From an uncultured virus (IMG/VR IMGVR_UViG_3300030430_003815) (taxonomy: Duplodnaviria > Heunggongvirae > Uroviricota > Caudoviricetes), in IMG/VR virus record IMGVR_UViG_3300030430_003815: a stretch of 64,000 nucleotides of DNA. One strand, written 5' to 3'. Position 1 is the stretch's first letter, and every line of letters begins with the position of its first letter. Of the stretch, positions 39,651 to 63,644 are shown in pieces. The translations under genes and the position numbers were made by a program. Under the pieces are notes generated by a model, which had not been told where the DNA came from, made no database searches, and was given only the letters and a program-made list of their open reading frames with translations.

Positions 39651-39677
39651 AATACTATATAATGATTGGAGTATATA

Positions 39678-40352
39678 ATGGAACTGAATGAAGACACTCT
39701 TCAGATATTGAAAAACTTTGCTAGTATAAATTCAAACATTGTGTTTGATGAAGGTAGTACAGTTAAGACTATATCTGAAGCAAAAAATATATTATCGGAA
39801 GCTACTATATCAGAAAGCTTTCCACAAAGATTTGGTGTTTACGATTTAAATGAATTCTTAGGAGTACTTGGTTTAGTAGACAAACCTTCATTAAAGTTTG
39901 AAAAAGACTATGCTACTATTAACGATTCAACAGGTCGTTCAAAAGTAAAGTATTTCTTCTCAGATACTGAAATGTTAACAACACCTTCTAAAACAATTAC
40001 AATGCCAGAAGCAGATGTAACCTTTACTCTTGATGCCGATACACTTGGCAAGATAAGAAGAGCTGCTGGCGCTTTAGGTCATAAAGAACTTAAAGTAGAA
40101 CCAAGTGGTGGAGCTGTATCTCTAACTGTTACATCAACTGAAAATTCAACTGCAAATACTTTCTCAATCGATGTAGATGGTAAAGCAAATGTTGATAAAT
40201 ACAATTTTATTTTTAATATAAGTAATCTCAAGATGTTATCTGGAGACTATGACGTAGAAATATCTAAGAAATTAATATCTAAATTCACGAACTCTCAAAG
40301 CAATGTGAGTTATTGGATAGCCCTTGAAAAAACATCAACCTATGGAGTATAA
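39678..40352 (+). CDS. gp45: Sliding clamp gp45
   Basis: LKNFASINSNI, FGVYDLNEFL, YWIALE. Confidence 0.94.
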   Translation: MELNEDTLQILKNFASINSNIVFDEGSTVKTISEAKNILSEATISESFPQRFGVYDLNEFLGVLGLVDKPSLKFEKDYATINDSTGRSKVKYFFSDTEMLTTPSKTITMPEADVTFTLDADTLGKIRRAAGALGHKELKVEPSGGAVSLTVTSTENSTANTFSIDVDGKANVDKYNFIFNISNLKMLSGDYDVEISKKLISKFTNSQSNVSYWIALEKTSTYGV

Positions 40353-50819: not shown

Positions 50820-51547
50820 CAAATTATGTTTTTGACGTGGATGGAACACTTACACGCAGTAGAGGAAGAATGAATGAAGGATTTAGAAGATTCTTCTTAA
50901 AATTTATTCAAGATCACAAAGTATATCTTGTTACTGGAAGTGACTACCATAAGACAGTAGAACAAGTTAGTCGTGAGGTCACTGAATCAGTTGAAAAGGT
51001 ATTTAATTGTTCTGGGAATAGCGTTTGGAGAAAAGGTTTAAATATTCAAAAAACGGATTGGAGTATTCCTATGGAAGTAAAAGTGTGGCTTAAAAAGAAA
51101 CTTAATGAAAGTAAGTTTGATTTAAGAACTGGAAATCATATAGAAGAGCGACCAGGACTTGTAAACTTTAGTACCATAGGTAGAGGATGCAACTTAGAAC
51201 AAAGACGATCGTATGTAAAGTTTGATAGCATACATGAAGAAAGAGAAAAGATTACAAAAGAATTTAATGATAAATTTCCAAATATTACCGCTCAGGTTGC
51301 CGGAGAAACTGGGATAGATATTATACCAGCTGGAAAAGATAAAAGACAAGTAGCATTTATGATTGATGGGCCTATAACATTTTTTGGTGATAAAATGAAA
51401 TATGGAGGCAATGATTATCCATTGAAATTTGCCATAGAAGGTCGTGCTGATTCAGGTGCTATAGAAGTTAAAAATTGGGAACAAACACATAGATACTTAC
51501 AACAAATACAAATTTTCAGTTTACAAGAAGCTGTCGGTATGGTATAA
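50816..51547 (+). CDS. HAD-IIB phosphomannomutase-like (eukaryotic PMM type)
   Basis: FDVDGTLT, VTGSD, VNFSTIGR, FFGDK...GGNDY. Confidence 0.82.
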   Translation: MTNYVFDVDGTLTRSRGRMNEGFRRFFLKFIQDHKVYLVTGSDYHKTVEQVSREVTESVEKVFNCSGNSVWRKGLNIQKTDWSIPMEVKVWLKKKLNESKFDLRTGNHIEERPGLVNFSTIGRGCNLEQRRSYVKFDSIHEEREKITKEFNDKFPNITAQVAGETGIDIIPAGKDKRQVAFMIDGPITFFGDKMKYGGNDYPLKFAIEGRADSGAIEVKNWEQTHRYLQQIQIFSLQEAVGMV

Positions 51548-51568: not shown

Positions 51569-51982
51569 ATGAGTACACATTGGTCAAAAGATATTAGTGA
51601 TATGCATCAAAAGTTTGGTGTTAATAAATGGTTTACTAAAAATAAATCAAACAAAGAGATTATGAAAAAATATCTTATGTTTAGAATGCTTATGTTAAAT
51701 GAAGAATTACATGAAACAATGCAAGCTGTAAATAGTGAAAACCCAGAAGAAATAGTAGATGGTTTAATAGACATATGTGTATTTGCAATAGGTACTCTCA
51801 ATGTTTTAGAGGTTGACGCCGATAAAGCTTGGGATGCAATACATAATGCAAACATGGCAAAAGAACCTGGTGTAAAAGCTGGTAGGCCCAATCCTTTTGG
51901 TATGCCGGATCTATTAAAGCCAGAAGGTTGGAAAGGACCTGATCATAGCGACAATCATGGAAGTATCAGCGACATTCTTTAA
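51569..51982 (+). CDS. All-alpha NTP pyrophosphohydrolase (MazG/PRA-PH-like)
   Basis: EELHE...EEIVDGLID, ANMAK, KPEGW. Confidence 0.82.
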   Translation: MSTHWSKDISDMHQKFGVNKWFTKNKSNKEIMKKYLMFRMLMLNEELHETMQAVNSENPEEIVDGLIDICVFAIGTLNVLEVDADKAWDAIHNANMAKEPGVKAGRPNPFGMPDLLKPEGWKGPDHSDNHGSISDIL

Positions 51983-52886: not shown

Positions 52887-52893
52887 AAAAGTA

Positions 52894-52922: not shown

Positions 52923-52943
52923 AGAATTAGAATGGAGGTAAAA

Positions 52944-53312
52944 ATGAAAGAATCAGTTAAAGTTTTACAAGAATGCGCTCAAATGCAAACCAAAAAATCA
53001 GCCGACTATCAAAGCGATCAATCAAGCGTATTGCAAGCCATGCATTATCGTCGTGGTGTTGATACAATACATGATATTATAGTTGGTAAACTCATGCGTG
53101 CTACATCTTTACTCGAGTCTGGTAATAATCCAAACTTTGAATCACTTGAAGATAGTTATAAAGATATGATTAATTATGCTTCTTTTGCTGTAGCTTATAT
53201 GCGTGGTAAGATGGAAGGCCAGCGAGAAGATCGTGATATGTTTAATAAACCAATTGATCCAGCTGCTACTATTGATCCTGTTGAAGAACCAATTGAGGCA
53301 CATGACGGATAA
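52944..53312 (+). CDS. DUF1599/Nmad1-like nucleotide-modification-associated protein
   Basis: KKSADY...KLMR...ESLEDSYKDMINY motif; GGAGG SD. Confidence 0.72.
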   Translation: MKESVKVLQECAQMQTKKSADYQSDQSSVLQAMHYRRGVDTIHDIIVGKLMRATSLLESGNNPNFESLEDSYKDMINYASFAVAYMRGKMEGQREDRDMFNKPIDPAATIDPVEEPIEAHDG

Positions 53313-53889: not shown

Positions 53890-54077
53890 TATATGGTTGG
53901 ATATTGATAATGATAACTCTACATCCCGATGGATCATTAGATGGCGGAGCAATAGATTATTTTAACACTTTTCCAGAGTGTTTTGCTGTAATGCAAGAAA
54001 TGTCAGTAACAGGTCAAGGAACGGGTTATACCTGTGTAGATGACTATGTTGACATGAGTGGAGATATAGAACAGTGA
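53886..54077 (+). CDS. Small hypothetical protein
   Basis: Coupled ORF; hydrophobic N-terminus, two Cys. Confidence 0.55.
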   Translation: MIYGWILIMITLHPDGSLDGGAIDYFNTFPECFAVMQEMSVTGQGTGYTCVDDYVDMSGDIEQ

Positions 54078-54487
54078 GAATTGGATTTACTTGTAGTACC
54101 TTTGATTTACTTCATGCAGGCCATGTCATGATGTTAAGAGAAGCGAAAGCCCAATGTGATTATTTAATATGCGGACTACAAGTAGATCCAAGTGTAGACA
54201 GGCCAGAAAAGAATTCTCCTATACAATCTATTGTAGAAAGAGAAGCTCAATTAGCGGCAATAAAATATGTTGATGAGGTGATTATTTATTGTACAGAAGA
54301 TGATTTATGTGATATAATTAATATGTACCCAATTGATATTAGAATATTAGGTGAAGAGTATAGAGACAGAGATTTTACTGGAAAAGATGAATGTAAGAAA
54401 AGAGGTATTCAACTCTATTTTAATAAAAGAGAACATAGGTTTAGTACTTCAGATTTAAGGAAAAGAGTATGCGAAAAGACAATATAG
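54074..54487 (+). CDS. Cytidylyltransferase (TagD/glycerol-3-phosphate CT-like)
   Basis: FDLLHAGH (HxGH motif), YVDEV, RFSTSDLR. Confidence 0.88.
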   Translation: MRIGFTCSTFDLLHAGHVMMLREAKAQCDYLICGLQVDPSVDRPEKNSPIQSIVEREAQLAAIKYVDEVIIYCTEDDLCDIINMYPIDIRILGEEYRDRDFTGKDECKKRGIQLYFNKREHRFSTSDLRKRVCEKTI

Positions 54488-54687
54488 ATGATATTATAGA
54501 CCTAGGTGTAGACTTGAGTGAACCAGACTTTACAACTAAAAATGATAGGCCAGGATTTATTAGTAGCAGTGGTTGGCCAGTACGTAGAGAGATAACAAAG
54601 TTAAATCATACTATGAAAGTTATGATCAATCAAATGAATAAATTAAAGAAACAAATAAGTAAACTAGAGAAGAAAATAAATGGATAG
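54469..54687 (+). CDS. Hypothetical protein with coiled-coil C-terminus
   Basis: ORF track. Confidence 0.5.
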   Translation: MRKDNIDDIIDLGVDLSEPDFTTKNDRPGFISSSGWPVRREITKLNHTMKVMINQMNKLKKQISKLEKKING

Positions 54688-55387
54688 TATCGTGGAAAAT
54701 TTAACCTGGGCAAAAGTAAAACATATTCGTCAACATTTTAGAGATGAATTAAAAAAAGAAATATTTACTATTGATAAAACCGGTCAAAAGACTATTGAAA
54801 TGATCGGTGCGTCTTTCATTGCTGATGAGTCTGCAATATTTGGTACTCCTAATCGAGAGTATATTGATGCCGAAATAGATTGGTACAATGGTAGATCTAC
54901 AAATATAAATGAAATATTTGGAATCACTAAAGCACCACCACAAGCCTGGCAATATTCAGCTAATAAGTTTGGTGAGATCAATTCTAATTATGGCCACTTA
55001 ATCTTTAGTGAAAAATTTCATAATCAATATTTGCATGTTGTAGAAGAATTAATAAATAACCCTGATAGTCGTAGAGCCGCAATGATTTATAATCGTCCTT
55101 CAATATGGCTTGAATATAATGAAGACGGTAAGAATGATTTTATCTGTACTAATGCAGTGACATATTATATTCGTAATAGAAGATTAGATGCTGTAGTTCA
55201 AATGAGATCTAACGATGTGGTGTATGGCTACAAAAATGATTACGCCTGGCAACAATATGTTATGAAAAAACTTATCGAAGATATAAATGCTCAAAGAGCA
55301 GATGATGATCAGATCTTCAAAGGTTTCATGCATTGGCAGGTTCAAAACTTACATGTGTATGAAAGGCACTTTGATTTAGTACAATGA
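54680..55387 (+). CDS. gp42: dCMP hydroxymethylase (T4 gp42-type thymidylate synthase homolog)
   Basis: DKTGQKTIEMIGASFIADE, GEINSNYG, NPDSRR, DFICTN, MRSNDVVYGYKNDYAWQ, LHVYERHF closely follow T4 gp42 as recalled, including the cytosine-specifying Asp. Confidence 0.9.
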   Translation: MDSIVENLTWAKVKHIRQHFRDELKKEIFTIDKTGQKTIEMIGASFIADESAIFGTPNREYIDAEIDWYNGRSTNINEIFGITKAPPQAWQYSANKFGEINSNYGHLIFSEKFHNQYLHVVEELINNPDSRRAAMIYNRPSIWLEYNEDGKNDFICTNAVTYYIRNRRLDAVVQMRSNDVVYGYKNDYAWQQYVMKKLIEDINAQRADDDQIFKGFMHWQVQNLHVYERHFDLVQ

Positions 55388-55932
55388 GTCAATTATTTAA
55401 AGATCCAAATCAACCAGCATTATTTAGAGAGATGAACGATCCTGTTCTTAATGCGACATATAAAACAATGAATATTATTGGAGTCGCTCCTGAAAAGAAA
55501 TGGGATGTAAGATATATTGAACTAGCCTACAAAGTAAGTGAATGGTCAAAAGATCCATCTACAAAAATAGGATGTGTTGTTGTAGGAGATAAAGGTCAAG
55601 TACTAGCACAAGGTTACAATGGTTTTCCTCGTAAAATAGAAGATTCAAAAGAAAGACTTAATAACCGAGAAACCAAATTAAAATATGTAGTTCATGGAGA
55701 AATGAACGCGATATATAATGCTTGTTATAATGGAATCTCTCTTGAAGGAAGTACGATGTATGTTACTGGTCTTCCTACATGCTCAGACTGTGCAAAGGGA
55801 GTTATTCAAGTTGGAATCAAAAGAGTCGTATGGCCGAAAGAACTTGAAAATGTTGAAGACAGATGGAAAGAGTCCATCGAATTGACAATGTCAATGTTTG
55901 ATGAAGCGGGAGTAAAATACGAATTTGTTTAG
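55384..55932 (+). CDS. cd: dCMP deaminase
   Basis: WSKDPSTKIG, GYNGFPR, HGEMNAI, PTCSDC. Confidence 0.92.
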   Translation: MSQLFKDPNQPALFREMNDPVLNATYKTMNIIGVAPEKKWDVRYIELAYKVSEWSKDPSTKIGCVVVGDKGQVLAQGYNGFPRKIEDSKERLNNRETKLKYVVHGEMNAIYNACYNGISLEGSTMYVTGLPTCSDCAKGVIQVGIKRVVWPKELENVEDRWKESIELTMSMFDEAGVKYEFV

Positions 55933-56215
55933 CGACAGCGCTGAGTTGCTCTTCTTAAGTGAAAGATTTGCAGATATTGAAGATGCGGAACTCAGAACAG
56001 AAAACATCAAAAGAAGAATAAATCTGATGTGGAAATTTATTAAACCCACACCAGTTGCCGCTAAAGTTGTAGATGAACCTCCTCCAGAAGAACCAAAGTC
56101 TCCAATGATTGACGGTCATGGCGATGTACATGACAAACCTTTTAGTTTTTATAAAAGAGCTGATGCAGGAGATGATTTAGTAGAACAGCTAAAAAGAAAA
56201 TGGGAATTCAAATAA
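55925..56215 (+). CDS. Hypothetical protein
   Basis: ORF track. Confidence 0.5.
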   Translation: MFSDSAELLFLSERFADIEDAELRTENIKRRINLMWKFIKPTPVAAKVVDEPPPEEPKSPMIDGHGDVHDKPFSFYKRADAGDDLVEQLKRKWEFK

Positions 56216-56218
56216 TCG

Positions 56219-56247
56219 TTTACAAACAACAAAAAATTTGATATAAT
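56219..56247 (+). promoter_or_regulatory. Early-type promoter heading the UDG-MIPS operon (leaderless likely)
   Basis: TTTACA-N17-TATAAT, 6 nt before ATG 56254. Confidence 0.75.
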
Positions 56248-56253
56248 TATATT

Positions 56254-56628
56254 ATGAAAAAAATATTGATAGTTGGCCAAAACCCATCAGCTCAAAAGCC
56301 TAGAAAAAATTCTACATTTGATAGATTAGATCAATGGTGTAAAGAAATGAATGTTGATGATTTTGATTTTATTAACTGTATTGATTCAGTTGGTGATTAT
56401 AAAAAGCTAAATATCAATAAGACCAACATAGTAAACTCAACTCGAAACCGTAAAAAAATTATAGCTCTTGGAAATTTTTCTTCAGAGACTCTGACTAAAC
56501 TTGGGATAGATCATTTTAAAATGCCACATCCCTCTCCAAGAAATAGAAAACTTAATGATAAAGAGTTTGAGAAAAAAATGATTAACGAGTGCAAAAGTTA
56601 TTTAAACGAAACCTGTGAGCTACTCTGA
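56254..56628 (+). CDS. Minimal uracil-DNA-glycosylase-superfamily protein
   Basis: ILIVGQNPS (motif A), IIALGN, MPHPSPRN (motif B). Confidence 0.75.
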   Translation: MKKILIVGQNPSAQKPRKNSTFDRLDQWCKEMNVDDFDFINCIDSVGDYKKLNINKTNIVNSTRNRKKIIALGNFSSETLTKLGIDHFKMPHPSPRNRKLNDKEFEKKMINECKSYLNETCELL

Positions 56629-56674
56629 TCCAGTCAAATATCTCACGTTAATAAACTGATATAAAGGAGAAAAT

Positions 56675-57970
56675 ATGTCAAAAATTAAAGTCGGCATTGT
56701 CGGTGTCGGAAACTGTGCTAAGTCTCTCGTCGAGGGAATTCAATACTACAATTCAAATCCAGAAGATAAAGTTGGACTCATGTATCCAGATATCGGTGGT
56801 TACACAACTACTGATATAGAATTCGTTGTTGGTTTTGATGTAGATCGTCGTAAAGTAAATCGTCCATTAACAGAAGCTTTAAGAGCTGCTCCAAACTGCG
56901 CAATGAATCACGTTGAAGAAATATTGGAAGTTGGAAGTAACTCACCAGGTGCTGTAGCTCCAGGTGCTATGGTATATTCTGGTCCTGAACTCGATGGTAT
57001 TGCACCATGGATGCTTGAATATCCTAAAGAAGTTTCATTTAGAACAGGAGCTGAAGCAGCAAAATCTTATGACGATATTGTTGATTTAATTAAAAAAACT
57101 AAGGTTGATGTTTTAATTAACTATCTACCAGTTGGTACTGAAAAAGGATCTAGATTTTATATGGATGCAGCATTGGATGCTGGTGTCCATTTTGTTAATT
57201 GTATTCCAACACTTATATCAACCAAAGAAACTATGGAGATTGAACAGAAGTTTATCAATAAAGGTTTGACTATTGTTGGATCTGATATGAGATCGGCTTG
57301 GGGAGCTTCAAGAATGTCAGAAGTACTTCAAGGTGCTATGATAGATTCAGGATTGATGGTAACACAGCACATACAAATGAATATGGCCGCAGGATCTACT
57401 CAAGGTCAAGAAAATATTAGAACAGGTAGAACCGCAAATACTGATTTTCTTAATATGGCTGAAAAATCTCGATTGCATAATAAACATGTATCGAAAGAAA
57501 ATGTTTTGAAAGGTCAGAACGTAGTACGAAATGAACCTACAGCTGGTGCAACACTTTACGCTGGCCCATCACTTACAGTATTTCAAAAGCCAGGTGGACA
57601 ATATGTAGGTAGTGATAATAAAATAGCTAACTTTGATATTATTGCTTATGGTTTTGGTGGAGCTAGATATGAAATGTCCGCTAGATTATCAGTACAGGAT
57701 TCTCCAAATTCTGGTGGTGTTGTGGTATCTGCAATCAGGTTCTGTAAAGTCGCATCTGAAATGAGTATTGTTGGTTATCTTAGAGGACCATCAGCATGGA
57801 CTCAAAAAACTCCTCCACTTCAGTTATCTACATCTGATTCAAAATTTGAATGTGATGCTTTGGCAAGACGTACTCTTACAAAATTAACTGAAGCTCAATT
57901 AAAAGTAAATAAACCAAAAGCAAAAAGTTTACCATATACATTTCAAGCTGGAGAAACAGATTATGAGTAG
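56675..57970 (+). CDS. ino1: Myo-inositol-1(3)-phosphate synthase
   Basis: VGVGNCAKSLVEG, INYLPVG, FVNCIP, NTDFLNM, DSPNSGG. Confidence 0.9.
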   Translation: MSKIKVGIVGVGNCAKSLVEGIQYYNSNPEDKVGLMYPDIGGYTTTDIEFVVGFDVDRRKVNRPLTEALRAAPNCAMNHVEEILEVGSNSPGAVAPGAMVYSGPELDGIAPWMLEYPKEVSFRTGAEAAKSYDDIVDLIKKTKVDVLINYLPVGTEKGSRFYMDAALDAGVHFVNCIPTLISTKETMEIEQKFINKGLTIVGSDMRSAWGASRMSEVLQGAMIDSGLMVTQHIQMNMAAGSTQGQENIRTGRTANTDFLNMAEKSRLHNKHVSKENVLKGQNVVRNEPTAGATLYAGPSLTVFQKPGGQYVGSDNKIANFDIIAYGFGGARYEMSARLSVQDSPNSGGVVVSAIRFCKVASEMSIVGYLRGPSAWTQKTPPLQLSTSDSKFECDALARRTLTKLTEAQLKVNKPKAKSLPYTFQAGETDYE

Positions 57971-58367
57971 AGAACCTTTTGAGCCTTGGGAAAACATTCC
58001 TCAAAAGACCATAAATTCATATGATATCGATGGTGTTATATACATGGGCGACTATGATGGATTAAGACCAGGACCAGATGATATTATAATTACTGGAAGG
58101 TCTATTAATACTGAAAAAGAAACTCAAAAAATGCTTCTTGAAAAAGGTATAACTAATCCTTTATACATGAACTTTAAAGATGAAGACTTTAATGATAGAG
58201 AACAATCTGGATTTCACAAAGGTTGGACTCTATTTCATCTTGAAAAGATGGGGTATCATATTGGAATTCATTACGATGATGACAAAGTCCAAATCAAAAA
58301 AATAAATGAAATGATGCCAGATATTAAATGTGTTCATATTAAGCACAAACTTGTACCAAAGGAGTAA
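57963..58367 (+). CDS. Capless HAD phosphatase
   Basis: YDIDGV, ITGRS, K, HYDDD motifs. Confidence 0.8.
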   Translation: MSREPFEPWENIPQKTINSYDIDGVIYMGDYDGLRPGPDDIIITGRSINTEKETQKMLLEKGITNPLYMNFKDEDFNDREQSGFHKGWTLFHLEKMGYHIGIHYDDDKVQIKKINEMMPDIKCVHIKHKLVPKE

Positions 58368-58369
58368 AC

Positions 58370-59440
58370 ATGTACAACTATGATTGGTGGTCTTATGATA
58401 AAGACATAATGAAAGATTTTAATCATTTCTTAAAAAAGATTAATACTCGAGCATGCATCAATTATGGTTTTATTGATGAGGAATATGAAAACTTGAATAG
58501 GCATGGCGAGTTAGATCATGGCCTAGGACGCAACGTAGAATATTTCCACCCTACAATTACTTTAGATGATAGAATGAGATATATTGGTACAGTCATTGCG
58601 CAACACGATATGTCAGATTTTAGTATCTTAGGTAATGGTATCATATCTCACTTTTATGGAGCACGAGGTTGTCATATGGCAGTTACAGGATCTAATGATC
58701 CAAACGACTGTTTTGTTGATTTTGATAGACTGGCTGAAAATGATAAAGATTATTTGCAACATCTTAGAAATAATATAGATAATGCTAAGAGATTAAAAAA
58801 ACCAATATGGGGTACAACAGAACTTCATACATCAATACAAGCAGCGTCAAGAAATTATTGTAGAGAAAAATATGATGATGCAAATAGATTATTTCATCCA
58901 GTTGATGTAGTTGATTGGGTAGCATCATTTAGAGATAATGGAACATATGAAGAACTTTTTGCTGCAGATCATATTGGTCAAGCTTATAAGATATTAAGAA
59001 AGTTGCCAGGTATTGGAGAATATTATGGATTTCACGGCGCGGCATCAACTAGTGTTTTGCCTCAAATGAAATATTATCATGATGATAAATTTGTAGCACC
59101 AGGGCCAGGCGCCGTATATACAATAGGACTCATGTGGCCAAAAGCTCCAAAAAAATATTATGCAGAAGCTATTTACTTCTTGAGAGAAAATAGTGATGAA
59201 ATCGGTCTTACAGAAGATGTTAGTTTCCATCCAGGCGCATATAATATTGACATGCCAGGTGGAAAAAAACTTTTTAGAGAAGATCAAAAAACTCTTAAAT
59301 ATTATGGTACTGAAGTTTTATCTTGTCAGTTCGGTATATACTTGCAGATTAGAGAAGATGCTAACATGTGCGCAAAACGTCAGGTATCAAGAGCTACAGT
59401 ACTTGAAGATCAAAATACATTAGAAAGTTTTATGCAATGA
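58370..59440 (+). CDS. aGPT-Pplase1-like (HhH-glycosylase fold) DNA base hypermodification enzyme
   Basis: LRKLPGIGEYY, FVAPGPGA, EVLSCQFGIY motifs; C-terminal TLESF tail. Confidence 0.7.
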   Translation: MYNYDWWSYDKDIMKDFNHFLKKINTRACINYGFIDEEYENLNRHGELDHGLGRNVEYFHPTITLDDRMRYIGTVIAQHDMSDFSILGNGIISHFYGARGCHMAVTGSNDPNDCFVDFDRLAENDKDYLQHLRNNIDNAKRLKKPIWGTTELHTSIQAASRNYCREKYDDANRLFHPVDVVDWVASFRDNGTYEELFAADHIGQAYKILRKLPGIGEYYGFHGAASTSVLPQMKYYHDDKFVAPGPGAVYTIGLMWPKAPKKYYAEAIYFLRENSDEIGLTEDVSFHPGAYNIDMPGGKKLFREDQKTLKYYGTEVLSCQFGIYLQIREDANMCAKRQVSRATVLEDQNTLESFMQ

Positions 59441-60423
59441 AAGCAATACTAAACTGTCCATTTATTCCAGTGGCAAAAAGAATAGCTTCTCATAGAGGAG
59501 CTCAAGGTGTCATGTATGGCGATATGATAAAACAAAAATATGGACATTGTGATGTCAACTTTGGTGGAGAGATTGTAGATCACAATCAGTATGATACGAT
59601 GTGGGTATATCATGGAAATGATTTTAGTGGTGGATTAAATATGTTTGGCGGTGTTTATGGATTTCCTTATGTAGAAAATACAGTAAACTTTTCTAAGTTT
59701 AAAGGAAAGATAAAATCAATAGCCATTGACTTCCCGCCATATCATGAATGGATAAAAGATAAATTAGATAAGGCTAAAAAAGATGTACAGCCTGAATGGG
59801 CCAATGTAGATTTAAATAATCTTGAAAGAATGTATAATGAAGCTGAAACCGTTGATTATCCAAATATGACTGATAAACTAGTCATAGGTGATTCACATTC
59901 AATATGCATGTATAGACCAGGTTGGACCGTCAATAGTATACCATTTAAAACTTTAAATGGAGCATTAAAAGAAGGTATCAAAACATTCATACCAAAAGGA
60001 AGTTTCAATCAAATAGAATTATATTTTGGCAATATTGATATAAGACATCATGTATGTAGGCTAAATGCCGATATAGAAGAATTAGCTGATAGGTATATCG
60101 AACAAGCAAAAGAATTAAATGCTAAAATATATGAACTACTGCCGATAGAAAACGAATCACGTAAGTTACCACAATCTGGATATTACAAAGGCGAACCTTT
60201 CTGGGGAACATGGCAAGAAAGAACAGATGCAAGAAATAAGTTTAATGATTATATTGAAAGCAAATATGGAATCATACGATGGACAGATAAATTATTAAAT
60301 AAAGCCGGTGAACTTGATTTTGCATGTATGGAAAAACCAAAGTCAATACATTTAAGTAGAGAATTCTATCCTCATTGGAATGGTGAAGAAGAAGTAAATA
60401 CATTAGAGGAGTTTTTCGGATGA
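59437..60423 (+). CDS. Putative DNA-modifying enzyme: BGT-like N-terminal domain fused to an SGNH-like domain
   Basis: QYDTMWVY...NMFGG...KFKGKIKSIAIDFP resembles the T4 BGT N-domain; VIGDSH, FGNIDIR, SIHLS resemble SGNH blocks; ends TLEEFFG. Confidence 0.55.
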   Translation: MKAILNCPFIPVAKRIASHRGAQGVMYGDMIKQKYGHCDVNFGGEIVDHNQYDTMWVYHGNDFSGGLNMFGGVYGFPYVENTVNFSKFKGKIKSIAIDFPPYHEWIKDKLDKAKKDVQPEWANVDLNNLERMYNEAETVDYPNMTDKLVIGDSHSICMYRPGWTVNSIPFKTLNGALKEGIKTFIPKGSFNQIELYFGNIDIRHHVCRLNADIEELADRYIEQAKELNAKIYELLPIENESRKLPQSGYYKGEPFWGTWQERTDARNKFNDYIESKYGIIRWTDKLLNKAGELDFACMEKPKSIHLSREFYPHWNGEEEVNTLEEFFG

Positions 60424-61616
60424 GCTTTGCAAGTATAGTACCACTTATAGGTGGTGAAACAATAGCAATGCAGAATGTATCAGGTAAAAAACCAGAATAT
60501 ATATTGAGCTATTCAGCGTTTGAAGCAAACGATAATCAATTAGTTGAGTACTATGATAACAAAGTCCCATACTATCATTTAGATGGTAACATGCCAAATA
60601 GTTTACCAACTGTAGAATCAGTTAATACTGTGTGTCCATGCGCAGGATTAAGCAGTCTTTCTCCAGTTGCCGGTACAAATAACAGTAATAATGATTGGAT
60701 GATTTCAACAGCTAAACATGTTTTAGAACATATTAATCCTAAAGTATTTTGGGGAGAAAACGCTCCAAGACTTGCAAGTAAAATGGGAGAACCTATTGTT
60801 AAGAATCTTAGAAAAATTGGTAGAGACAATGGTTATACATTTTCTATTTACAAGACTAAATCTATATTACATGGGCTAAGTCAAGTCAGAGACAGAACAT
60901 TTTATTTCTTTTGGAAAGGAAACAAAACTCCACAACTACCTTACTTTCGCAGAGATTATGAACGTATTGAAGATACTATTAGAAATACTAAACTTGAAAA
61001 AGATGATCCTATGAATACTCCTGCTAATAGTAAGGTTCCTACAGATAATCCTTTTTATAAGTATGTACTAGAAGAGATTGAAGGAGGAATAACACATTCA
61101 GAGTTTCAAGAAAAAATAGAACGTAGTACTAATCCTTTAGAAGAAATAGAAAGAGCTGGTATAAAATATCGTACTGTGGGTGAGTGGATGACTAAAAATG
61201 GTCATGATAGAGAAGCAGAAAAGTGTAAAAGAATGCACGATAAATTAGCATCAGGCGGTAATATAATGCGTAAAACTACTGAAATACCAAAAGATTATAT
61301 TGGAGCTTTTGTTGGTCATATGCCAACTTCATTAACACATCCTGATGAAGATAGGTATCTTACAGTAAGAGAATGTTTATCAATAATGAAACTACCAAAT
61401 GATTTTATGTTGCAGGGAGGATTAAAAAATCTTAATCACATTTGTCAAAATGTTCCAGTAACTACAGCAGAAGATATGGCTACAAGTGTTCATGCTTTTG
61501 TTGAAGGAAGACTTGATAACCAATTGATAGATACTGAATTTTTAGTGCAAGACAATAAAAGTAAATCATTAGATTATGAAAGAGATGTTTTGAAATTAGA
61601 TCAATTTATGGTATAA
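60420..61616 (+). CDS. C5-cytosine methyltransferase-fold protein with degenerate SAM-binding motifs
   Basis: CPCAG, GENAP, QVRDR, RYLTVREC; motif I reads IVPLIGG and motif X reads QNVP. Confidence 0.75.
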   Translation: MSFASIVPLIGGETIAMQNVSGKKPEYILSYSAFEANDNQLVEYYDNKVPYYHLDGNMPNSLPTVESVNTVCPCAGLSSLSPVAGTNNSNNDWMISTAKHVLEHINPKVFWGENAPRLASKMGEPIVKNLRKIGRDNGYTFSIYKTKSILHGLSQVRDRTFYFFWKGNKTPQLPYFRRDYERIEDTIRNTKLEKDDPMNTPANSKVPTDNPFYKYVLEEIEGGITHSEFQEKIERSTNPLEEIERAGIKYRTVGEWMTKNGHDREAEKCKRMHDKLASGGNIMRKTTEIPKDYIGAFVGHMPTSLTHPDEDRYLTVRECLSIMKLPNDFMLQGGLKNLNHICQNVPVTTAEDMATSVHAFVEGRLDNQLIDTEFLVQDNKSKSLDYERDVLKLDQFMV

Positions 61617-61626
61617 AGGAGAAAAA

Positions 61627-62379
61627 ATGAAAATAATGATAACTGGTTCAAGTGGTTTTGTTGGAAGCCATTTGAAAGAAAGATGGAAAGCTAAAGGTCA
61701 TCAAATTGTAGAATGGGATAGAAAAGAAGGAAAAGAACTAAAAGACATAGTTATTGATAGCGATACAAATTACGTTATTCATCTTGCAGCCTGGGCTGAT
61801 GTAAGAGCATCAATAGAAAGACCAAATGACTATTGGGAAAATAATGTTGTTACTACAACTAATATACAAAGAATATGTCATGAAAAAGGAATACAATTAT
61901 TTTATGCATCATCTTCTTGTGTACATGCATGGTCTAAATCACCATACGGTATAAGTAAGAAAGTAAATGAAGAAACAGCTTTTCCTGGTCAAGTAGGTTT
62001 ACGATTTACGACAGTTTATGGTGAAGGCGCTAGAGACACGATGATGATTGGAAAACTGGTACGAAACGAAGCAAATTATGCCACGAATCATGTAAGAGAT
62101 TTTATTCATGTTAGCGATGTTATGGATGTCATAGAAATGCTTATGAATAAACCTGTTCATATGCTTGAACCAGCTTATGATGTAGGAACTGGTATTGGAA
62201 ATAGAGTTGATTACTTAGCTAATGATATTTGTGGTTATGATCTTCCAGTCAAAGAAGGTCAATCTTGTGAGGCTTTAGATAATACCGCTGACATAACTTT
62301 ACTAAGAGATATGAAATGGGAACCAAAAGTAAATATCGTAGATTACTTGAGAGAAAAAACTACAGTACTCCACCAGTGA
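61627..62379 (+). CDS. NAD-dependent nucleotide-sugar epimerase/dehydratase
   Basis: ITGSSGFVG, HLAA, ASSS, YGISK, LRFTTVYG, RDFIHV. Confidence 0.9.
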   Translation: MKIMITGSSGFVGSHLKERWKAKGHQIVEWDRKEGKELKDIVIDSDTNYVIHLAAWADVRASIERPNDYWENNVVTTTNIQRICHEKGIQLFYASSSCVHAWSKSPYGISKKVNEETAFPGQVGLRFTTVYGEGARDTMMIGKLVRNEANYATNHVRDFIHVSDVMDVIEMLMNKPVHMLEPAYDVGTGIGNRVDYLANDICGYDLPVKEGQSCEALDNTADITLLRDMKWEPKVNIVDYLREKTTVLHQ

Positions 62380-62606: not shown

Positions 62607-63644
62607 ATGTCAATAATGGATAAACTCAAAAAGAACTCAAAGCTAAGTCATACCGAAGTTCTTTCAGAGTCTAAATTTTTTACAGAAAAAGATATGGTAA
62701 CAACTGATGTACCTATGTTAAACGTTGCTCTATCTGGTTCTGTTGAAGGTGGCTTAGCACCAGGACTTACTGTATTAGCAGGTCCGTCTAAACATTTTAA
62801 AACTTCATTTGCATTAATGATTGCTTCGGCTTATTTAAAAAAATATTCTGAAGCTGTAATGCTATTCTATGATTCAGAGTTTGGTTCACCACAATCTTAC
62901 TTTCAACAATTTGAAATTGATACGTCAAGAGTTTTACATACGCCTATTACAAATGTAGAAGAACTTAAATTTGATCTTATAGGTCAACTTGAAAATCTTG
63001 ATCGTAATGATAAAGTTATTGTAGTTATAGATTCGATAGGCAACCTAGCATCTAAAAAAGAAATGGAAGATGCACTTAATGAAAAGTCTGTTGCGGATAT
63101 GTCTAGGGCAAAAGCACTTAAAGGTTTATTTAGAATGACCACACCATATCTTGCAATGAAGAATATTCCTTTACTAGCTGTCAATCATACTTATATGGAA
63201 ATTGGTTTATTTCCTAAAGCTGTTGTTGGTGGTGGTACGGGTATTTACTATTCTGCAGATAATATATGGATCATTGGCCGTCAACAAGATAAGAAAGGTA
63301 CCGAGATAAAAGGTTATCATTTTGTTATTAATGTAGAAAAATCAAGGTACGTAAAAGAAAAATCTAAAATTCCAATATCAGTTACTTGGGAAGGCGGTGT
63401 ATCCAAATTCTCTGGATTATTAGATGTTGCTCTTGCAGGTGGTCATGTTACTAAACCATCAAATGGTTGGTACCAAAGAAAAGGAGAAGAGAGCAAAGTA
63501 AGAGAAGCTGGAACTCTTGAAGAAAACTTTTGGGAGCCAATATTTGCAAATACAGACTTCAAAGATTTTATTAAGAGGCAATATTCAATAGGACATACCG
63601 CTCCTGTTGAGATGGAAGAGATTGCAGATGAACTCTCCGCTTAA
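62607..63644 (+). CDS. uvsX: RecA-like recombinase UvsX
   Basis: AGPSKHFKT, YDSEFG, DSIGNLASKKE, GGTGIYYSAD. Confidence 0.95.
   Translation: MSIMDKLKKNSKLSHTEVLSESKFFTEKDMVTTDVPMLNVALSGSVEGGLAPGLTVLAGPSKHFKTSFALMIASAYLKKYSEAVMLFYDSEFGSPQSYFQQFEIDTSRVLHTPITNVEELKFDLIGQLENLDRNDKVIVVIDSIGNLASKKEMEDALNEKSVADMSRAKALKGLFRMTTPYLAMKNIPLLAVNHTYMEIGLFPKAVVGGGTGIYYSADNIWIIGRQQDKKGTEIKGYHFVINVEKSRYVKEKSKIPISVTWEGGVSKFSGLLDVALAGGHVTKPSNGWYQRKGEESKVREAGTLEENFWEPIFANTDFKDFIKRQYSIGHTAPVEMEEIADELSA

What the first reader, a model, noticed from the sequence alone, without database searches (positions are those of the whole stretch)
54074..62379. Candidate new DNA hypermodification system: hmC synthase, inositol synthesis and three DNA-acting transferase-like enzymes
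Seen: one co-oriented cluster encoding a cytidylyltransferase, T4 gp42-like dCMP hydroxymethylase, dCMP deaminase, UDG-fold protein, myo-inositol-phosphate synthase, HAD phosphatase, aGPT-Pplase1-like protein, BGT-N/SGNH fusion, C5-MTase-fold protein and an NDP-sugar epimerase. Established: gp42 makes 5-hydroxymethyl-dCMP, which T-even phages then glycosylate in DNA; aGPT-Pplase enzymes attach groups to hydroxymethylpyrimidines. Inference: no intact alpha- or beta-glucosyltransferase is visible in the window, so the hydroxymethyl base may instead carry inositol, inositol-phosphate or another sugar, possibly further acylated. I know of no described inositol-modified DNA base.
Basis: partly seen in the sequence, partly recalled or inferred. 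Interest (0 to 1): 0.92.

Follow-up and report, generated by a model that had tools for sequence, protein, structure and literature searches.

The report
Phage cyclitol-linked hydroxymethylcytosine modification cassette
An uncultured marine T4-like phage keeps, where T4 has its DNA glucosyltransferase, genes for hydroxymethylcytosine, a two-gene inositol kit and three DNA enzymes carrying the polymerase's clamp-binding tail, which points to an inositol-type decoration of DNA that nobody has yet shown chemically.

Summary
All ten gene assignments hold at 54074-62379, on the + strand, with overlapping stops and starts. The TS homologue is a true T4-type dCMP hydroxymethylase.

What I add:
1. The inositol-phosphate synthase (MIPS) is always followed by a small HAD phosphatase. 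In 80 of 83 related loci this pair lies inside a DNA-hypermodification cassette (hmC 64, hmU 14, 7-deazaguanine 2). The other 3 loci are cut off just after MIPS.
2. Among loci holding gp42 and the 328-aa protein, MIPS, HAD and the 356-aa protein are all present (68) or all absent (8).
3. The 356-aa protein has a helix-hairpin-helix glycosylase fold and the Glu-x3-Cys dyad of amino-acid:DNA transferases.
4. The 356-aa, 328-aa and C5-methyltransferase proteins end in the DNA polymerase's own clamp-binding tail.

Best reading: hmC DNA is further modified at the sliding clamp, with free inositol (or a related cyclitol) as the likely nucleophile. About 45% for the whole chain. No chemistry exists. 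The CDP-inositol or inositol-phosphate version is poorly supported.

This scan reached the same reading earlier on other genomes. Those notes are not independent evidence.

Novelty: new variant of a known kind. Interest 0.8.

The parts
39666..40352 (+). Sliding clamp (gp45 homologue), the proposed docking partner. Context, outside the finding.
   Evidence: phrog_223 DNA polymerase processivity factor, 1.5e-76.
48288..50819 (+). DNA polymerase (gp43 homologue), left boundary of the T4-syntenic 43...uvsX interval. It ends in NTLEEFFG.
   Evidence: phrog_262, E 0. C-terminus. T4 gene order.
50816..51547 (+). Phosphomannomutase-type HAD-IIB protein. Possible sugar-phosphate mutase, accessory.
   Evidence: PF03332 PMM, 1.5e-25. 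Not found in any of 83 related loci.
51569..51982 (+). MazG/PRA-PH-like nucleotide pyrophosphohydrolase. Only a candidate dCTPase.
   Evidence: PF01503, 1.3e-9. phrog_671. No similarity to any T4 gene at E<=1.
52932..53312 (+). DUF1599, 'nucleotide modification associated domain 1'.
   Evidence: PF07659, 1.5e-6. Conserved in related loci.
54074..54487 (+). HxGH-type cytidylyl/adenylyltransferase, accessory.
   Evidence: PF01467, 2.6e-13. PDB 3elb 1.5e-22 and 1coz 6e-12. Present in 4 of 83 loci.
54469..54687 (+). 72-aa ORF of unknown function.
   Evidence: No family hit.
54680..55387 (+). dCMP hydroxymethylase (gp42 orthologue).
   Evidence: PDB 1b49, E 4e-71. The aligned stretches FICTN and RSNDVVYGYKNDYAWQ match T4's FMCTN and RSNDVVFGFRNDYAWQ.
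55384..55932 (+). dCMP deaminase.
   Evidence: PF00383, 2.8e-21. phrog_174, 8.5e-44.
55925..56215 (+). 96-aa ORF of unknown function.
   Evidence: No family hit.
56254..56628 (+). Mini uracil-DNA-glycosylase-fold protein. Possibly repairs deaminated hmC. Accessory.
   Evidence: PF03167, 2.5e-7. Motifs GQNPS and HPSPRN. Present in 20 of 83 loci.
56675..57970 (+). myo-Inositol-3-phosphate-synthase-like cyclitol phosphate synthase.
   Evidence: PDB 1gr0, E 2.2e-51 over residues 3-387. phrog_33138, 4.9e-111. TIGR03450 scores 200 bits, below its 638-bit cut-off.
57963..58367 (+). Small HAD phosphatase, invariably paired with MIPS.
   Evidence: HAD motifs conserved. Follows MIPS in 98 of 98 loci with at least 2.6 kb downstream.
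58370..59440 (+). P356: helix-hairpin-helix glycosylase-fold, transferase-like DNA enzyme with invariant Glu315-x3-Cys319 and a clamp tail (NTLESFMQ).
   Evidence: PF18723 in 20 of 20 aligned homologues. Model pLDDT 89.3. VIA Z 9.1 to 7u07 and Z 8.7 to 8z2m, PaMx11 gp46. Invariant residues, motif, tail.
59437..60423 (+). P328: N-domain weakly like the T4 beta-glucosyltransferase N-domain, plus an SGNH acyl-transfer/esterase domain and a clamp tail (NTLEEFFG, identical to the polymerase's last 8 residues).
   Evidence: Model pLDDT 85.5. Foldseek 2hsj, 3.9e-6. VIA Z 11.7 over residues 140-326. Invariant GDSH, GN, E299, S303 and H305. Comparison with beta-gt. Tail.
60420..61616 (+). C5-cytosine methyltransferase-fold enzyme with a clamp tail (LKLDQFMV).
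   Evidence: PF00145, 9.7e-17. Invariant PC, ENAP, QxRxR, RE and QNV motifs in 17 homologues. Tail in 80 of 88 family ORFs.
61627..62379 (+). Short (250 aa) SDR NDP-sugar epimerase/dehydratase-like protein, accessory.
   Evidence: PF01370, 1.5e-28. Hits in 13 of 83 loci.
62607..63644 (+). UvsX recombinase, right boundary of the interval.
   Evidence: phrog_97, 1e-89. T4 gene order.

Best explanation
This is a DNA-hypermodification cassette of an uncultured marine T4-like myovirus. It sits where T4 keeps genes 42 and beta-gt, between the DNA polymerase and uvsX genes.

Shown by sequence: a T4-type dCMP hydroxymethylase makes hm-dCMP, so the phage DNA should contain 5-hydroxymethylcytosine (about 85%).

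Inferred:

1. Three enzymes each end in the polymerase's own clamp-binding peptide. They work on freshly copied DNA from the sliding clamp (about 70%).
2. MIPS plus the HAD phosphatase turn glucose-6-phosphate into free myo-inositol or a related cyclitol.
3. In the thymidine pathway of phages M6, ViI and PaMx11 it is the base that is activated, not the small molecule. By analogy, the free cyclitol would be the nucleophile.
4. P356 would add it. P356 has a helix-hairpin-helix (HhH) glycosylase fold and the same Glu-x3-Cys dyad as amino-acid:DNA transferases. Its cysteine would attack C6 of an activated hmC, and the cyclitol would add to the exocyclic methylene, giving an ether-linked cyclitol-methylcytosine. 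I put about 45% on a cyclitol ending up on DNA at all.
5. The hmC cassette holds no kinase. P328 has a beta-gt-like DNA-binding half plus an intact SGNH acyl-transfer domain, and it is fused to P356 in Aeromonas phages. I propose that it either activates the hydroxymethyl by O-acylation (about 30%) or acylates the finished adduct.
6. The C5-methyltransferase-fold enzyme either methylates residual cytosine or lends its C6-attacking chemistry to hmC. This is open.
For: gp42:
- E 4e-71 to T4 gp42. The catalytic Cys and the cytosine-specifying Asp lie in motifs identical to T4's.
- It keeps T4's Asp where 5-hydroxy-dCMP synthases have Asn (PMC13326640, section 28).

Synteny:
- T4 reads 43-imm-42-bgt-segA-uvsX.

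MIPS+HAD:
- HAD follows MIPS in 98 of 98 loci with enough flank.
- 80 of 83 MIPS loci hold hypermodification genes within 6 kb (64 hmC, 14 hmU, 2 deazaguanine). The other 3 have under 0.8 kb downstream of MIPS.
- The pair lies between the transferase and the kinase in hmU cassettes, and between gp42/dCD and P356 in hmC cassettes.
- Of 76 loci with gp42 and P328, 68 have MIPS, HAD and P356, 8 have none of the three, and none is mixed. Nine contigs are counted twice.

P356:
- PF18723 in 20 of 20 homologues.
- HhH glycosylase fold: Z 8.7, rmsd 4.2 A over 220 residues to PaMx11 gp46 (8z2m); Z 9.1, rmsd 5.5 A over 218 residues to 7u07.
- Glu-x3-Cys-Gln-Phe/Tyr is present in 20 of 20 P356 homologues and in 3 of 4 Pfam-ADDT proteins of my loci.
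- PaMx11 gp46 uses Glu243 and Cys247 (PMC11472151, passages).

P328:
- SGNH fold with invariant GDSH, GN and His.
- Fused to a P356 homologue in Aeromonas phages 44RR and 31.
- Those phages have gene 42 but no glucosyltransferase (PMC2993671, passages).
- In phage 25 it lies next to a UDP-galactopyranose mutase. In 44RR it lies next to a sodium:solute symporter.

Clamp tails:
- The polymerase and P328 share their last 8 residues.
- Across the loci the tail motif ends 35 of 36 polymerases, 92 of 97 P356, 83 of 92 P328 and 80 of 88 MT ORFs.
- It ends only 25 of 1411 unassigned ORFs, 0 of 90 HAD, 0 of 72 UvsX and 1 of 127 MIPS ORFs.
- T4 gp43, gp55 and gp33 bind gp45 through such interchangeable C-termini (PMC2988020, passages).
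- Predicted complex of the clamp with P328 residues 285-328: weak support, score 0.53, best of 3 controls 0.00. That mark was reached by 116 of 157 solved complexes and 2 of 215 mismatched pairs. At 0.60 or under it was reached by only 18 of the 157 solved complexes and by both of the mismatches that passed. The runs agree in at least 63% of contacts, and the partner's pLDDT is at least 42. An RB69 clamp-peptide complex is already solved, so the pass may come from memory.
Against: - No chemical data of any kind exist.
- MIPS+HAD also lies inside 7-deazaguanine clusters. Phage Moby has no ADDT and no TS homologue anywhere in its genome. The nucleophile model does not explain this.
- On the MIPS tree the cassette type changes at least 4 times around a conserved MIPS. 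This also fits a resident, independent gene pair at a recombination hot spot.
- MIPS, HAD and P356 are adjacent, so their all-or-none pattern could be block gain and loss.
- P356 is not a Pfam ADDT: 0 of 20 homologues hit PF18724. Profile comparison with two ADDTs gave probability under 1%. The shared dyad is a short motif.
- No kinase or other proven activating enzyme is in the cassette. The acylation step is a guess.
- The P328 N-domain likeness to beta-gt is weak.
- MIPS scores below NCBIfam's equivalog cut-off. Its second-best solved relative is a five-membered-cyclitol-phosphate synthase, so the product may not be myo-inositol.
- This phage also has phosphomannomutase-like, nucleotidyltransferase and SDR genes, which hint at a nucleotide-sugar route.
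- A dCTPase is not identified, so full replacement of C is not shown.
Confidence: 0.45

Rival explanations
1. MIPS+HAD is a linked but independent auxiliary metabolic pair. It would make inositol for the infected cell, for example as a solute, as a lipid head group or to divert glucose-6-phosphate. It would merely reside in the polymerase-uvsX hot spot where modification modules are swapped. The DNA adduct made by P356, P328 and MT would then be something else, such as an acyl group or an amino acid.
For: - The MIPS tree shows at least 4 switches of cassette type around a conserved MIPS (74-99% identity).
- The pair occurs with three unrelated base chemistries, including 7-deazaguanine, where no hydroxymethyl handle exists.
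- P328 and MT persist without MIPS in 8 loci.
- P328 and P356 occur without MIPS in Aeromonas phages.
- The one paper I found that mentions a phage MIPS treats it as a gene of bacterial origin (PMC9025141, passages).
Against: - The pair is never seen away from a hypermodification cassette: 80 of 83 loci, and the other 3 are truncated.
- It lies in the middle of the cassettes, not at their edges. No hybrid flanks were seen.
- It is strictly all-or-none with P356.
- Ending the pathway at a free alcohol is exactly what transferases of the AADT type need (PMC8989533, passages).
Confidence: 0.3
2. The donor is nucleotide-activated. It would be CDP-inositol or inositol-phosphate, or an NDP-sugar made by the phosphomannomutase-like, nucleotidyltransferase and SDR genes. 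It would be handed to hmC by the beta-glucosyltransferase-like part of P328 or by an unseen glycosyltransferase.
For: - The window encodes a PMM-type mutase.
- It encodes an HxGH nucleotidyltransferase related to glycerol-P and ethanolamine-P cytidylyltransferases and to heptose-1-P adenylyltransferase.
- It encodes an SDR epimerase and a short UDP-glucose-dehydrogenase-like ORF.
- L008 has an epimerase, a dehydrogenase and a GT8 in the same cassette.
- Phage 25 pairs P328 with a UDP-galactopyranose mutase.
Against: - The nucleotidyltransferase is in only 4 of 83 loci, the PMM in 0 of 83 and the epimerase in 13 of 83. These genes are therefore accessory.
- A phosphatase always follows MIPS.
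- P328 lacks the sugar-nucleotide-binding half of beta-gt, which an SGNH domain replaces.
- No glycosyltransferase family was hit in the ORFs scanned.
- The rest of the genome could not be searched.
Confidence: 0.12
3. Nothing beyond hmC (and perhaps m5C) is made. P356 would be a repair glycosylase, P328 an esterase unrelated to DNA, and MT an ordinary anti-restriction methyltransferase.
For: - The best structural matches of P356 include true glycosylases and a queuine salvage enzyme at the same Z as the transferase.
- MT keeps every catalytic C5-methyltransferase motif.
- SGNH enzymes are mostly esterases.
Against: - All three carry the polymerase-type clamp tail, conserved down to 24% identity and into Aeromonas phages.
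- P328 and P356 are fused in Aeromonas phages.
- The three are tightly syntenic with gp42 in dozens of contigs.
- P328 occurs in exactly those gene-42-positive, glucosyltransferase-negative Aeromonas phages.
Confidence: 0.1

Closest known systems
T-even phage hmC pathway (gp42 dCMP hydroxymethylase followed by alpha/beta-glucosyltransferase)
   Same: - A gp42 orthologue with identical active-site motifs.
- The same genome position, 43...42-bgt...uvsX.
- hmC serves as the handle for post-replicative decoration.
- The P328 N-domain faintly resembles the beta-gt N-domain.
- T4 alpha-glucosyltransferase was reported to interact with gp45 (recalled, not checked here).
   Different: - No GT-B sugar-nucleotide domain and no glycosyltransferase family hit.
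- An SGNH domain, an HhH Cys/Glu enzyme and a C5-methyltransferase-fold enzyme take its place.
- A cyclitol synthesis pair is embedded in the cassette.
- T4 beta-gt has no clamp tail.
Thymidine hypermodification: 5-hmdU DNA kinase plus amino-acid:DNA transferase (aGPT-Pplase2/ADDT) of phages M6, ViI, PaMx11 and PhiW-14
   Same: - An HhH glycosylase-like enzyme with a Glu-x3-Cys dyad.
- A free, unactivated small molecule attacks an activated 5-hydroxymethylpyrimidine in DNA (PMC8989533).
- Sister cassettes in related contigs and in phage Cr30 pair true ADDT and kinase genes with the same MIPS+HAD.
   Different: - The base here is hmC, not hmU.
- The Pfam family is PF18723, not PF18724.
- No P-loop kinase is in the cassette.
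- The predicted nucleophile is a cyclitol, not an amino acid or polyamine.
Aeromonas phages 44RR2.8t, 31 and 25 (gene 42 present, no glucosyltransferase)
   Same: - They encode P328 homologues at 28-35% identity.
- In 44RR and 31 these are fused to a P356 homologue that keeps the GDSHS and E-x3-CQF motifs and a T4-polymerase-like tail.
   Different: - No MIPS, HAD or MT.
- The neighbours are a sodium:solute symporter (44RR) or a UDP-galactopyranose mutase (phage 25).
- I found no report on their DNA chemistry. One search and the 2010 review leave it open.
Arabinosyl-5-hydroxycytosine of RB69 and DLP3 (TS-homologue 5hodCMP synthase plus GT-B arabinosyltransferases)
   Same: A T4-like phage in which a TS homologue, sugar-supply genes and a small HAD phosphatase are clustered (PMC13326640).
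   Different: - The TS homologue here keeps Asp, as T4 gp42 does, at the position where 5hodCMP synthases have Asn.
- There are no GT-B transferases.
Clamp-binding C-termini of T4/RB69 gp43, gp55 and gp33. More loosely, DNMT1 recruited by PCNA (recalled).
   Same: Short hydrophobic-acidic C-terminal peptides, identical or nearly identical to the polymerase's own.
   Different: Here they sit on three DNA-modifying enzymes. I found no paper describing that, but I ran no dedicated literature search for it.

Membership tests
T4 gp42 dCMP hydroxymethylase | Thymidylate-synthase fold with close similarity to T4 gp42 | tested here: met
   PDB 1b49, E 4e-71, residues 13-234 aligned to 8-225.
T4 gp42 dCMP hydroxymethylase | Catalytic Cys and cytosine-specifying Asp (T4 Cys148 and Asp179, numbering recalled) | tested here: met
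   FICTN aligns with FMCTN, and KNDYAWQ with RNDYAWQ. The D179N mutant chain 6l18 differs from wild type at that Asp.
T4 gp42 dCMP hydroxymethylase | Asp, not Asn, at the ThyA-169-equivalent position (Asn marks 5-hydroxy-dCMP synthases) | tested here: met
   RSND is identical to T4. The rule comes from PMC13326640, section 28. The equivalence to ThyA 169 rests on my reading of the T4 motif.
myo-Inositol-3-phosphate synthase | Full-length similarity to characterised Ino1 | tested here: met
   1gr0, E 2.2e-51 over residues 3-387. Pfam PF01658 scores 34.8 bits against a 27-bit cut-off.
myo-Inositol-3-phosphate synthase | Score above the NCBIfam equivalog cut-off (same function) | tested here: not met
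   TIGR03450 scores 200.3 bits against a 638-bit cut-off. A five-membered-cyclitol-phosphate synthase (6k96) is the second-best hit. The product may be another cyclitol phosphate.
HAD phosphatase | Motifs I-IV (DxD, S/T, K, acidic pair) | tested here: met
   DxDGVI, ITGR, SGxxK and EDD are kept in at least 90% of 17 homologues.
HAD phosphatase | Hit to a curated HAD model | tested here: inconclusive
   No Pfam or NCBIfam hit. Only phrog_415, 4e-5.
Amino-acid:DNA transferase (ADDT / aGPT-Pplase2, PF18724) | Match to PF18724 | tested here: not met
   0 of 20 P356 homologues match it. All 20 match PF18723 instead. hhalign against two ADDTs gave probability under 1%.
Amino-acid:DNA transferase (ADDT / aGPT-Pplase2, PF18724) | HhH DNA-glycosylase-like fold | tested here: met
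   VIA Z 8.7, rmsd 4.2 A, 220 residues aligned to 8z2m. This is tied with the glycosylase and queuine-salvage rows at Z 8.9-9.1. Foldseek found no match at E<=0.001.
Amino-acid:DNA transferase (ADDT / aGPT-Pplase2, PF18724) | Catalytic Glu and Cys four residues apart (PaMx11 gp46 Glu243 and Cys247) | tested here: met
   E315 and C319 are invariant in 20 of 20 homologues. Residue roles come from PMC11472151. No structural superposition of the two dyads was done.
Amino-acid:DNA transferase (ADDT / aGPT-Pplase2, PF18724) | Partner 5-hydroxymethylpyrimidine DNA kinase | tested here: not met
   No P-loop kinase family was hit in 50816-62379. Kinases are present in the hmU-type sister cassettes.
T4 beta-glucosyltransferase (GT-B) | N-terminal DNA/hmC-binding domain | tested here: inconclusive
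   BLASTP E 0.007 (residues 29-105 against 38-109). hhalign E 1.7e-4, probability 49%, 45 columns. The N-domain was not folded or searched on its own.
T4 beta-glucosyltransferase (GT-B) | C-terminal UDP-glucose-binding Rossmann domain | tested here: not met
   Residues 140-326 are an SGNH fold.
SGNH/GDSL hydrolase-acyltransferase | Fold plus block I GDS(x), block III GxN and block V His | tested here: met
   2hsj, E 3.9e-6. Z 11.7 to 9kqz (rmsd 3.0 A, 166 residues) and Z 11.5 to 2hsj (rmsd 3.8 A, 172 residues). G151, D152, S153, H154, G198, N199, E299, S303 and H305 are invariant or nearly so. The block assignment is by my reading.
C5 DNA cytosine methyltransferase | Pfam PF00145 and motifs IV (PC), VI (ENV-like), VIII (QxRxR), IX and X | tested here: met
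   61.8 bits against a 22-bit cut-off. P73, C74, E113, N114, Q155, R157, R159, R317, E318, Q343 and V345 are invariant and N344 nearly invariant in 17 homologues.
C5 DNA cytosine methyltransferase | Canonical SAM-binding motif I (FxGxG) and motif II acid | tested here: inconclusive
   The family reads VPLIGG, and the residue after F34 varies E/K/Q. Profile hits to HaeIII and HhaI do not cover the first 60 residues. The canonical motifs are recalled. No fold was made.
T4-type sliding-clamp ligands | Hydrophobic-acidic C-terminal peptide like the polymerase's own | tested here: met
   The last 8 residues of P328 equal those of the polymerase. The definition comes from PMC2988020.
T4-type sliding-clamp ligands | Physical binding to the clamp | not testable with these tools
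   There is only a prediction with weak support: 0.53 against 0.00 for the best of 3 controls. See the For line for the calibration counts.

The most novel reading that the evidence does not exclude
Free inositol (or a related cyclitol) made by a phage MIPS+phosphatase pair is coupled by ether linkage to activated 5-hydroxymethylpyrimidines in DNA. HhH Cys/Glu transferases would do the coupling: the P356 family on hmC and divergent ADDTs on hmU. This would give a whole class of cyclitol-bearing DNA bases, widespread in T4-like phages of marine, freshwater and soil bacteria. In the hmC version the enzymes ride the sliding clamp, and O-acylation by an SGNH domain replaces the phosphorylation step of the thymidine pathway.
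Probability: 0.35. Interest if true: 0.9.

Novelty: new variant of a known kind. Interest (0 to 1): 0.8.

Why it matters
- Post-replicative decoration of hydroxymethylpyrimidines is how many phages escape restriction and CRISPR nucleases. The known adducts are sugars, amino acids and polyamines. A cyclitol would be a new chemical class of DNA modification.
- An acyl-activation route would be a new enzymatic logic.
- Three different modifying enzymes carrying the polymerase's clamp-binding tail would show how modification is coupled to replication in a phage.
- The cassette is common. At least 221 MIPS stretches and at least 561 P328 stretches were confirmed in the viral contig collection.
- Cultured phages carry parts of it, so the idea can be tested directly.
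- It would also answer what Aeromonas phages 44RR, 31 and 25 do with their unglucosylated hmC, a question left open in the 2010 review.

Tried and rejected
Searches and comparisons that gave nothing:

- Megablast of the region against 50,697 phage records: no match.
- The window's own assembly is not held. The nearest record, G001, is a 13.7-kb fragment with no match to the region. The rest of the genome, including any distant glycosyltransferase, dNMP kinase or dCTPase, could not be searched.
- phmmer against PDB gave nothing significant for P328, P356, the phage 25 358-aa neighbour or the Cr30 ADDT.
- Foldseek of the P356 model: no match at E<=0.001.
- The ESM Atlas gave no usable hit for the P328 N-domain.
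- hhalign of the P356 profile against two ADDTs and against the phage 25 neighbour: probability about 1% or less. No profile-level homology to ADDT is claimed, only the dyad motif.
- The MazG-like ORF against the whole T4 genome: nothing at E<=1. I dropped the dCTPase label.
- The Tenacibaculum phage hit covers only the SGNH half.
- The three ORFs that replace MIPS, HAD and P356 in 8 loci have no Pfam hit.

Readings considered and rejected:

- The TS homologue as a 5-hydroxy-dCMP synthase. Rejected on the Asp/Asn rule.
- CDP-inositol as the general donor. Rejected because the nucleotidyltransferase is rare.

Literature:

- Four searches combining inositol or MIPS with phage DNA modification found no paper describing such a link.
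- The hits mention inositol only in enzyme names or call the phage MIPS a bacterial-like gene.
- Iyer et al. 2013 is not held, so its treatment of these families was not seen.
- Supplements were not consulted.

Full report
**What the window is.** All called genes but one small ORF lie on the + strand at about 30-42% G+C, mostly 30-39%. PHROG scans identify a T4-like myovirus: baseplate, sheath, tube, portal, prohead protease, scaffold and major head protein. They also identify UvsY, UvsW-type helicase, gp55, gp46/47, the sliding clamp (39666-40352), the clamp loader, RegA and the DNA polymerase (48288-50819). The major head protein is 60-65% identical to those of Phage C48C1, Methylophilales phage Melnitz, Pelagibacter phage HTVC008M and cyanomyoviruses. 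This is therefore an uncultured marine lineage with an unknown host. Megablast finds no close relative among 50,697 phage records.

**The observation.**
Their family assignments hold.
- The interval between the polymerase and UvsX (62607-63644) is syntenic with T4, which reads 43-imm.1-imm-42-bgt-segA-uvsX. The 328-aa protein therefore lies where T4 has beta-gt.
- No glycosyltransferase family was hit among the 63 of 73 ORFs scanned with PHROGs or the 36 scanned with Pfam.

**The hydroxymethylase.**
- The TS homologue matches T4 gp42 at E 4e-71. It shares the stretch around the catalytic Cys and the RSND...NDYAWQ stretch that holds the cytosine-specifying Asp.
- A 2026 paper shows that some phage TS homologues, including RB69's, make 5-hydroxy-dCMP. 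These are marked by Asn in place of the Asp equivalent to ThyA 169 (PMC13326640, section 28 read). The window's protein has Asp there, as T4 does. I therefore read it as an hm-dCMP synthase.
- A dCTPase is not identified. The MazG-like ORF at 51569-51982 has no similarity to any T4 gene. Complete replacement of C is therefore not shown.

**The inositol pair.**
- The 431-aa protein aligns with M. tuberculosis Ino1 over nearly its whole length (E 2.2e-51). Its second-best solved relative is a five-membered-cyclitol-phosphate synthase. It stays below NCBIfam's equivalog cut-off, so 'a cyclitol phosphate, most likely inositol-3-phosphate' is the safe wording.
- The 134-aa ORF that overlaps its stop has all four HAD motifs, conserved in 17 homologues.
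- A scan of the viral contig collection with the MIPS protein confirmed 221 stretches, and I received the best 80. Nineteen isolate records also encode it: Stenotrophomonas 16, Caulobacter 2 and Ralstonia 1.
- The HAD gene follows MIPS in 98 of 98 loci that have at least 2.6 kb downstream. This holds for the three isolates I fetched as well.

**What surrounds the pair elsewhere.** I classified the 83 MIPS loci (80 contigs plus RP13, Moby and Cr30) by tblastn with proteins of the window and of the loci. The family names were set by Pfam.
- 64 loci carry the hmC set: gp42 and/or P356, P328 and MT.
- 14 loci carry an hmU set: Tet_JBP dioxygenase or a second TS homologue, a Pfam ADDT transferase, and a P-loop 'nucleotide kinase 3' or HMUD2 kinase.
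- 2 loci carry QueC/FolE 7-deazaguanine genes.
- 3 loci carry none of these, and they end 380-790 nt after MIPS.

The pair lies in the middle of each cassette:
- ADDT-MIPS-HAD-kinase in the hmU type.
- gp42-dCD-(UDG)-MIPS-HAD-P356-P328-MT in the hmC type.
- FolE-MIPS-HAD-QueC-DpdA-QueE in Moby.

- Of the 36 new loci with at least 4.5 kb upstream of P328, 28 have MIPS.
- Over all loci that hold both gp42 and P328, 68 have MIPS, HAD and P356, 8 have none of the three, and none is mixed. Nine contigs occur in both scans and are counted twice.
- MT follows P328 in 69 of 75 loci with at least 2.5 kb downstream.
- The cytidylyltransferase (4 of 83), the epimerase (13 of 83), the mini-UDG (20 of 83) and the PMM-like gene (0 of 83) are accessory.

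**Evidence against a simple reading.**
- I built a MIPS tree of 42 rows: the window plus 41 of the 83 loci, which I picked to thin near-identical rows. Well-supported branches force at least 4 changes of cassette type. An hmU-type locus (L015) nests inside an hmC clade, and a deazaguanine locus (L035) groups, without starred support, with the hmC subclade that holds the window.
- Both flanks change together. I saw no hybrids.
- Moby has neither an ADDT nor a TS homologue anywhere in its genome.
- So the pair is compatible with three base chemistries. One of them offers no hydroxymethyl handle. This keeps alive the rival that MIPS+HAD is a resident, independent pair at a recombination hot spot.

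**P356 (58370-59440).**
- All 20 aligned homologues, down to 23% identity, match Pfam PF18723 and no other family convincingly. This is recollection only.
- The AlphaFold model is confident (pLDDT 89.3, pTM 0.86).
- Foldseek gives no match at E<=0.001.
- The wide structural search gives a block of HhH glycosylase-fold proteins well above the unrelated rows:
  - Queuine salvage enzyme 7u07: Z 9.1, rmsd 5.5 A, 218 residues.
  - Thermotoga OGG 3n0u: Z 8.9.
  - PaMx11 gp46, the 5-phosphomethyl-dU glycinyltransferase 8z2m: Z 8.7, rmsd 4.2 A, 220 residues.
  - These rows are tied.
- Glu315 and Cys319 are invariant. The motif E-x3-C-Q-F/Y is in 20 of 20 P356 homologues and in 3 of the 4 Pfam-ADDT proteins of my loci.
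- In PaMx11 gp46, Glu243 and Thr244 hold the metal at O4 and Cys247 is the C6 nucleophile (PMC11472151, passages). The Cys and neighbouring Glu are essential in M6 gp51 and ViI gp247 (PMC8989533, passages).
- Profile comparison does not establish homology with ADDT. I therefore say that P356 works like an ADDT, not that it is one.

**P328 (59437-60423).**
- The model (pLDDT 85.5) has a C-terminal SGNH domain: Foldseek 2hsj at E 3.9e-6; VIA Z 11.7 to 9kqz and Z 11.5 to 2hsj over residues about 140-326. GDSH, GN, E299, S303 and H305 are invariant or nearly so.
- The N-domain gives only a weak match to T4 beta-gt, though at the matching position.
- In Aeromonas phages 44RR and 31 a P328 homologue is fused N-terminally to a P356 homologue in one 795-aa ORF. 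That ORF keeps both motif sets.
- Phage 25 has P328 alone, beside a UDP-galactopyranose mutase. In 44RR the neighbour is a sodium:solute symporter.
- These phages have genes 42 and 56 but no glucosyltransferase. The 2010 review left open what they do with hmC (PMC2993671, passages).

**The methyltransferase-fold enzyme (60420-61616).** It keeps all the catalytic motifs in 17 homologues. Motif I reads VPLIGG, and the usual motif II acid is not conserved. Hits to solved methyltransferases do not cover the first 60 residues. Whether it still uses SAM is open.

**Clamp tails.**
- The polymerase ends in NTLEEFFG and so does P328. P356 ends in NTLESFMQ, MT in LKLDQFMV and gp55 in DLSEFLK.
- With one regular expression over all ORFs of the loci, the tail is found in 35 of 36 polymerase, 92 of 97 P356, 83 of 92 P328 and 80 of 88 MT ORFs.
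- By contrast it is found in 25 of 1411 unassigned, 1 of 85 gp42, 1 of 127 MIPS, 0 of 90 HAD, 0 of 72 UvsX and 0 of 58 dCD ORFs. ORFs cut by contig ends are included.
- In the hmU cassettes, 2 of 7 kinase ORFs and 2 of 5 TET ORFs have it too.
- The 44RR fusion ends in SLDGLFAI, close to T4 gp43's SLDFLFG. T4 beta-gt has no such end.
- T4 gp43, gp55 and gp33 bind gp45 through such interchangeable C-termini, and an RB69 clamp-peptide structure exists (PMC2988020, passages).
- A predicted complex of the clamp with P328 residues 285-328 gave weak support only: 0.53 against 0.00 for the best of 3 controls. The calibration counts are in the For line. The pass may come from memory of the solved RB69 complex.

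**Mechanism I commit to, and how sure I am.**
- hmC in the DNA: about 85%.
- The three enzymes act on DNA from the clamp: about 70%.
- A cyclitol ends up on DNA: about 45%.
- In the thymidine pathway the base is the activated partner and the small molecule is free. A pathway that ends with a phosphatase, giving a free polyol, fits that logic better than a donor-activation logic. ViI's transferase already uses a hydroxyl nucleophile, serine.
- P356 is the likely coupling enzyme.
- The missing activation step is my weakest link. I propose O-acylation by the SGNH domain of P328, by analogy with kinase-transferase fusions and because P328 persists wherever gp42 does. I put this at about 30%. The alternative is that P328 acylates the finished adduct.
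- The rivals and their weights are listed separately.

**Comparison, novelty and earlier notes.**
- The kind is known: post-replicative hypermodification of 5-hydroxymethylpyrimidines in phage DNA.
- The enzyme set, the cyclitol link and the clamp tails on modifying enzymes are not in any paper that my four inositol-centred searches returned.
- I could not see Iyer et al. 2013.
- Earlier notes of this same scan describe the same cassette and the same tails on other genomes. I saw them after my own analysis. One of them gave me the review that I then read. They are AI notes and add no independent evidence.

Noticed in passing
window 42116-43189 and 43794-44546: A full-length GMP reductase (NF003470, 3.9e-155) and a short UDP-glucose-dehydrogenase-like ORF (250 aa, lacking the start of the NAD domain) lie between the clamp-loader genes.
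   Followed up: partly
window 50816-51547: A phosphomannomutase-type HAD-IIB gene lies directly after the DNA polymerase (PF03332, 1.5e-25). It is absent from all 83 related loci. Together with the nucleotidyltransferase and the SDR it may form a strain-specific nucleotide-sugar side path.
   Followed up: partly
window 56254-56628: The 124-aa UDG-fold protein has GQNPS and HPSPRN motifs. By recollection these resemble SMUG-type glycosylases that remove uracil and 5-hydroxymethyluracil, which is the deamination product of hmC.
   Followed up: no
window 46219-48002: Hsp20, plastocyanin-like copper protein and DoxX-like ORFs lie upstream of the polymerase. Such auxiliary genes are typical of marine T4-like phages.
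   Followed up: no
L143-L149, L152 (for example L148:4693-7788): Eight loci keep gp42, dCD, P328 and MT but replace MIPS, HAD and P356 with three ORFs of about 400-460, 295-312 and 330-357 aa. These have no Pfam hit and no clamp tail. This may be another, unknown adduct pathway.
   Followed up: partly
L084:5408-9388 (Aeromonas phage 44RR2.8t) and L085:4776-8047 (phage 25): The P328-P356 fusion of 44RR lies next to a phage-encoded sodium:solute symporter. P328 of phage 25 lies next to a UDP-galactopyranose mutase and a 358-aa unknown that ends in CLDLIMA.
   Followed up: partly
L027, L031, L069, L090, L092, L093, L113, L116, L153; L008:8960-9730: An FkbM-type methyltransferase is inserted between P356 and P328 in several loci. 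In L008 a family-8 glycosyltransferase follows MT. These look like tailoring variants of the cassette.
   Followed up: no
L015, L016, L080, L082, L083 (hmU-type cassettes): Some kinases (2 of 7 ORFs) and TET-like dioxygenases (2 of 5 ORFs) of the hmU-type cassettes also end in the clamp-tail motif.
   Followed up: no
L002 (Stenotrophomonas phage Moby) 7207-12621; L035 9959-14055: MIPS+HAD lies inside 7-deazaguanine gene clusters. Moby has no ADDT and no TS homologue anywhere. The cyclitol-nucleophile model does not explain this.
   Followed up: partly
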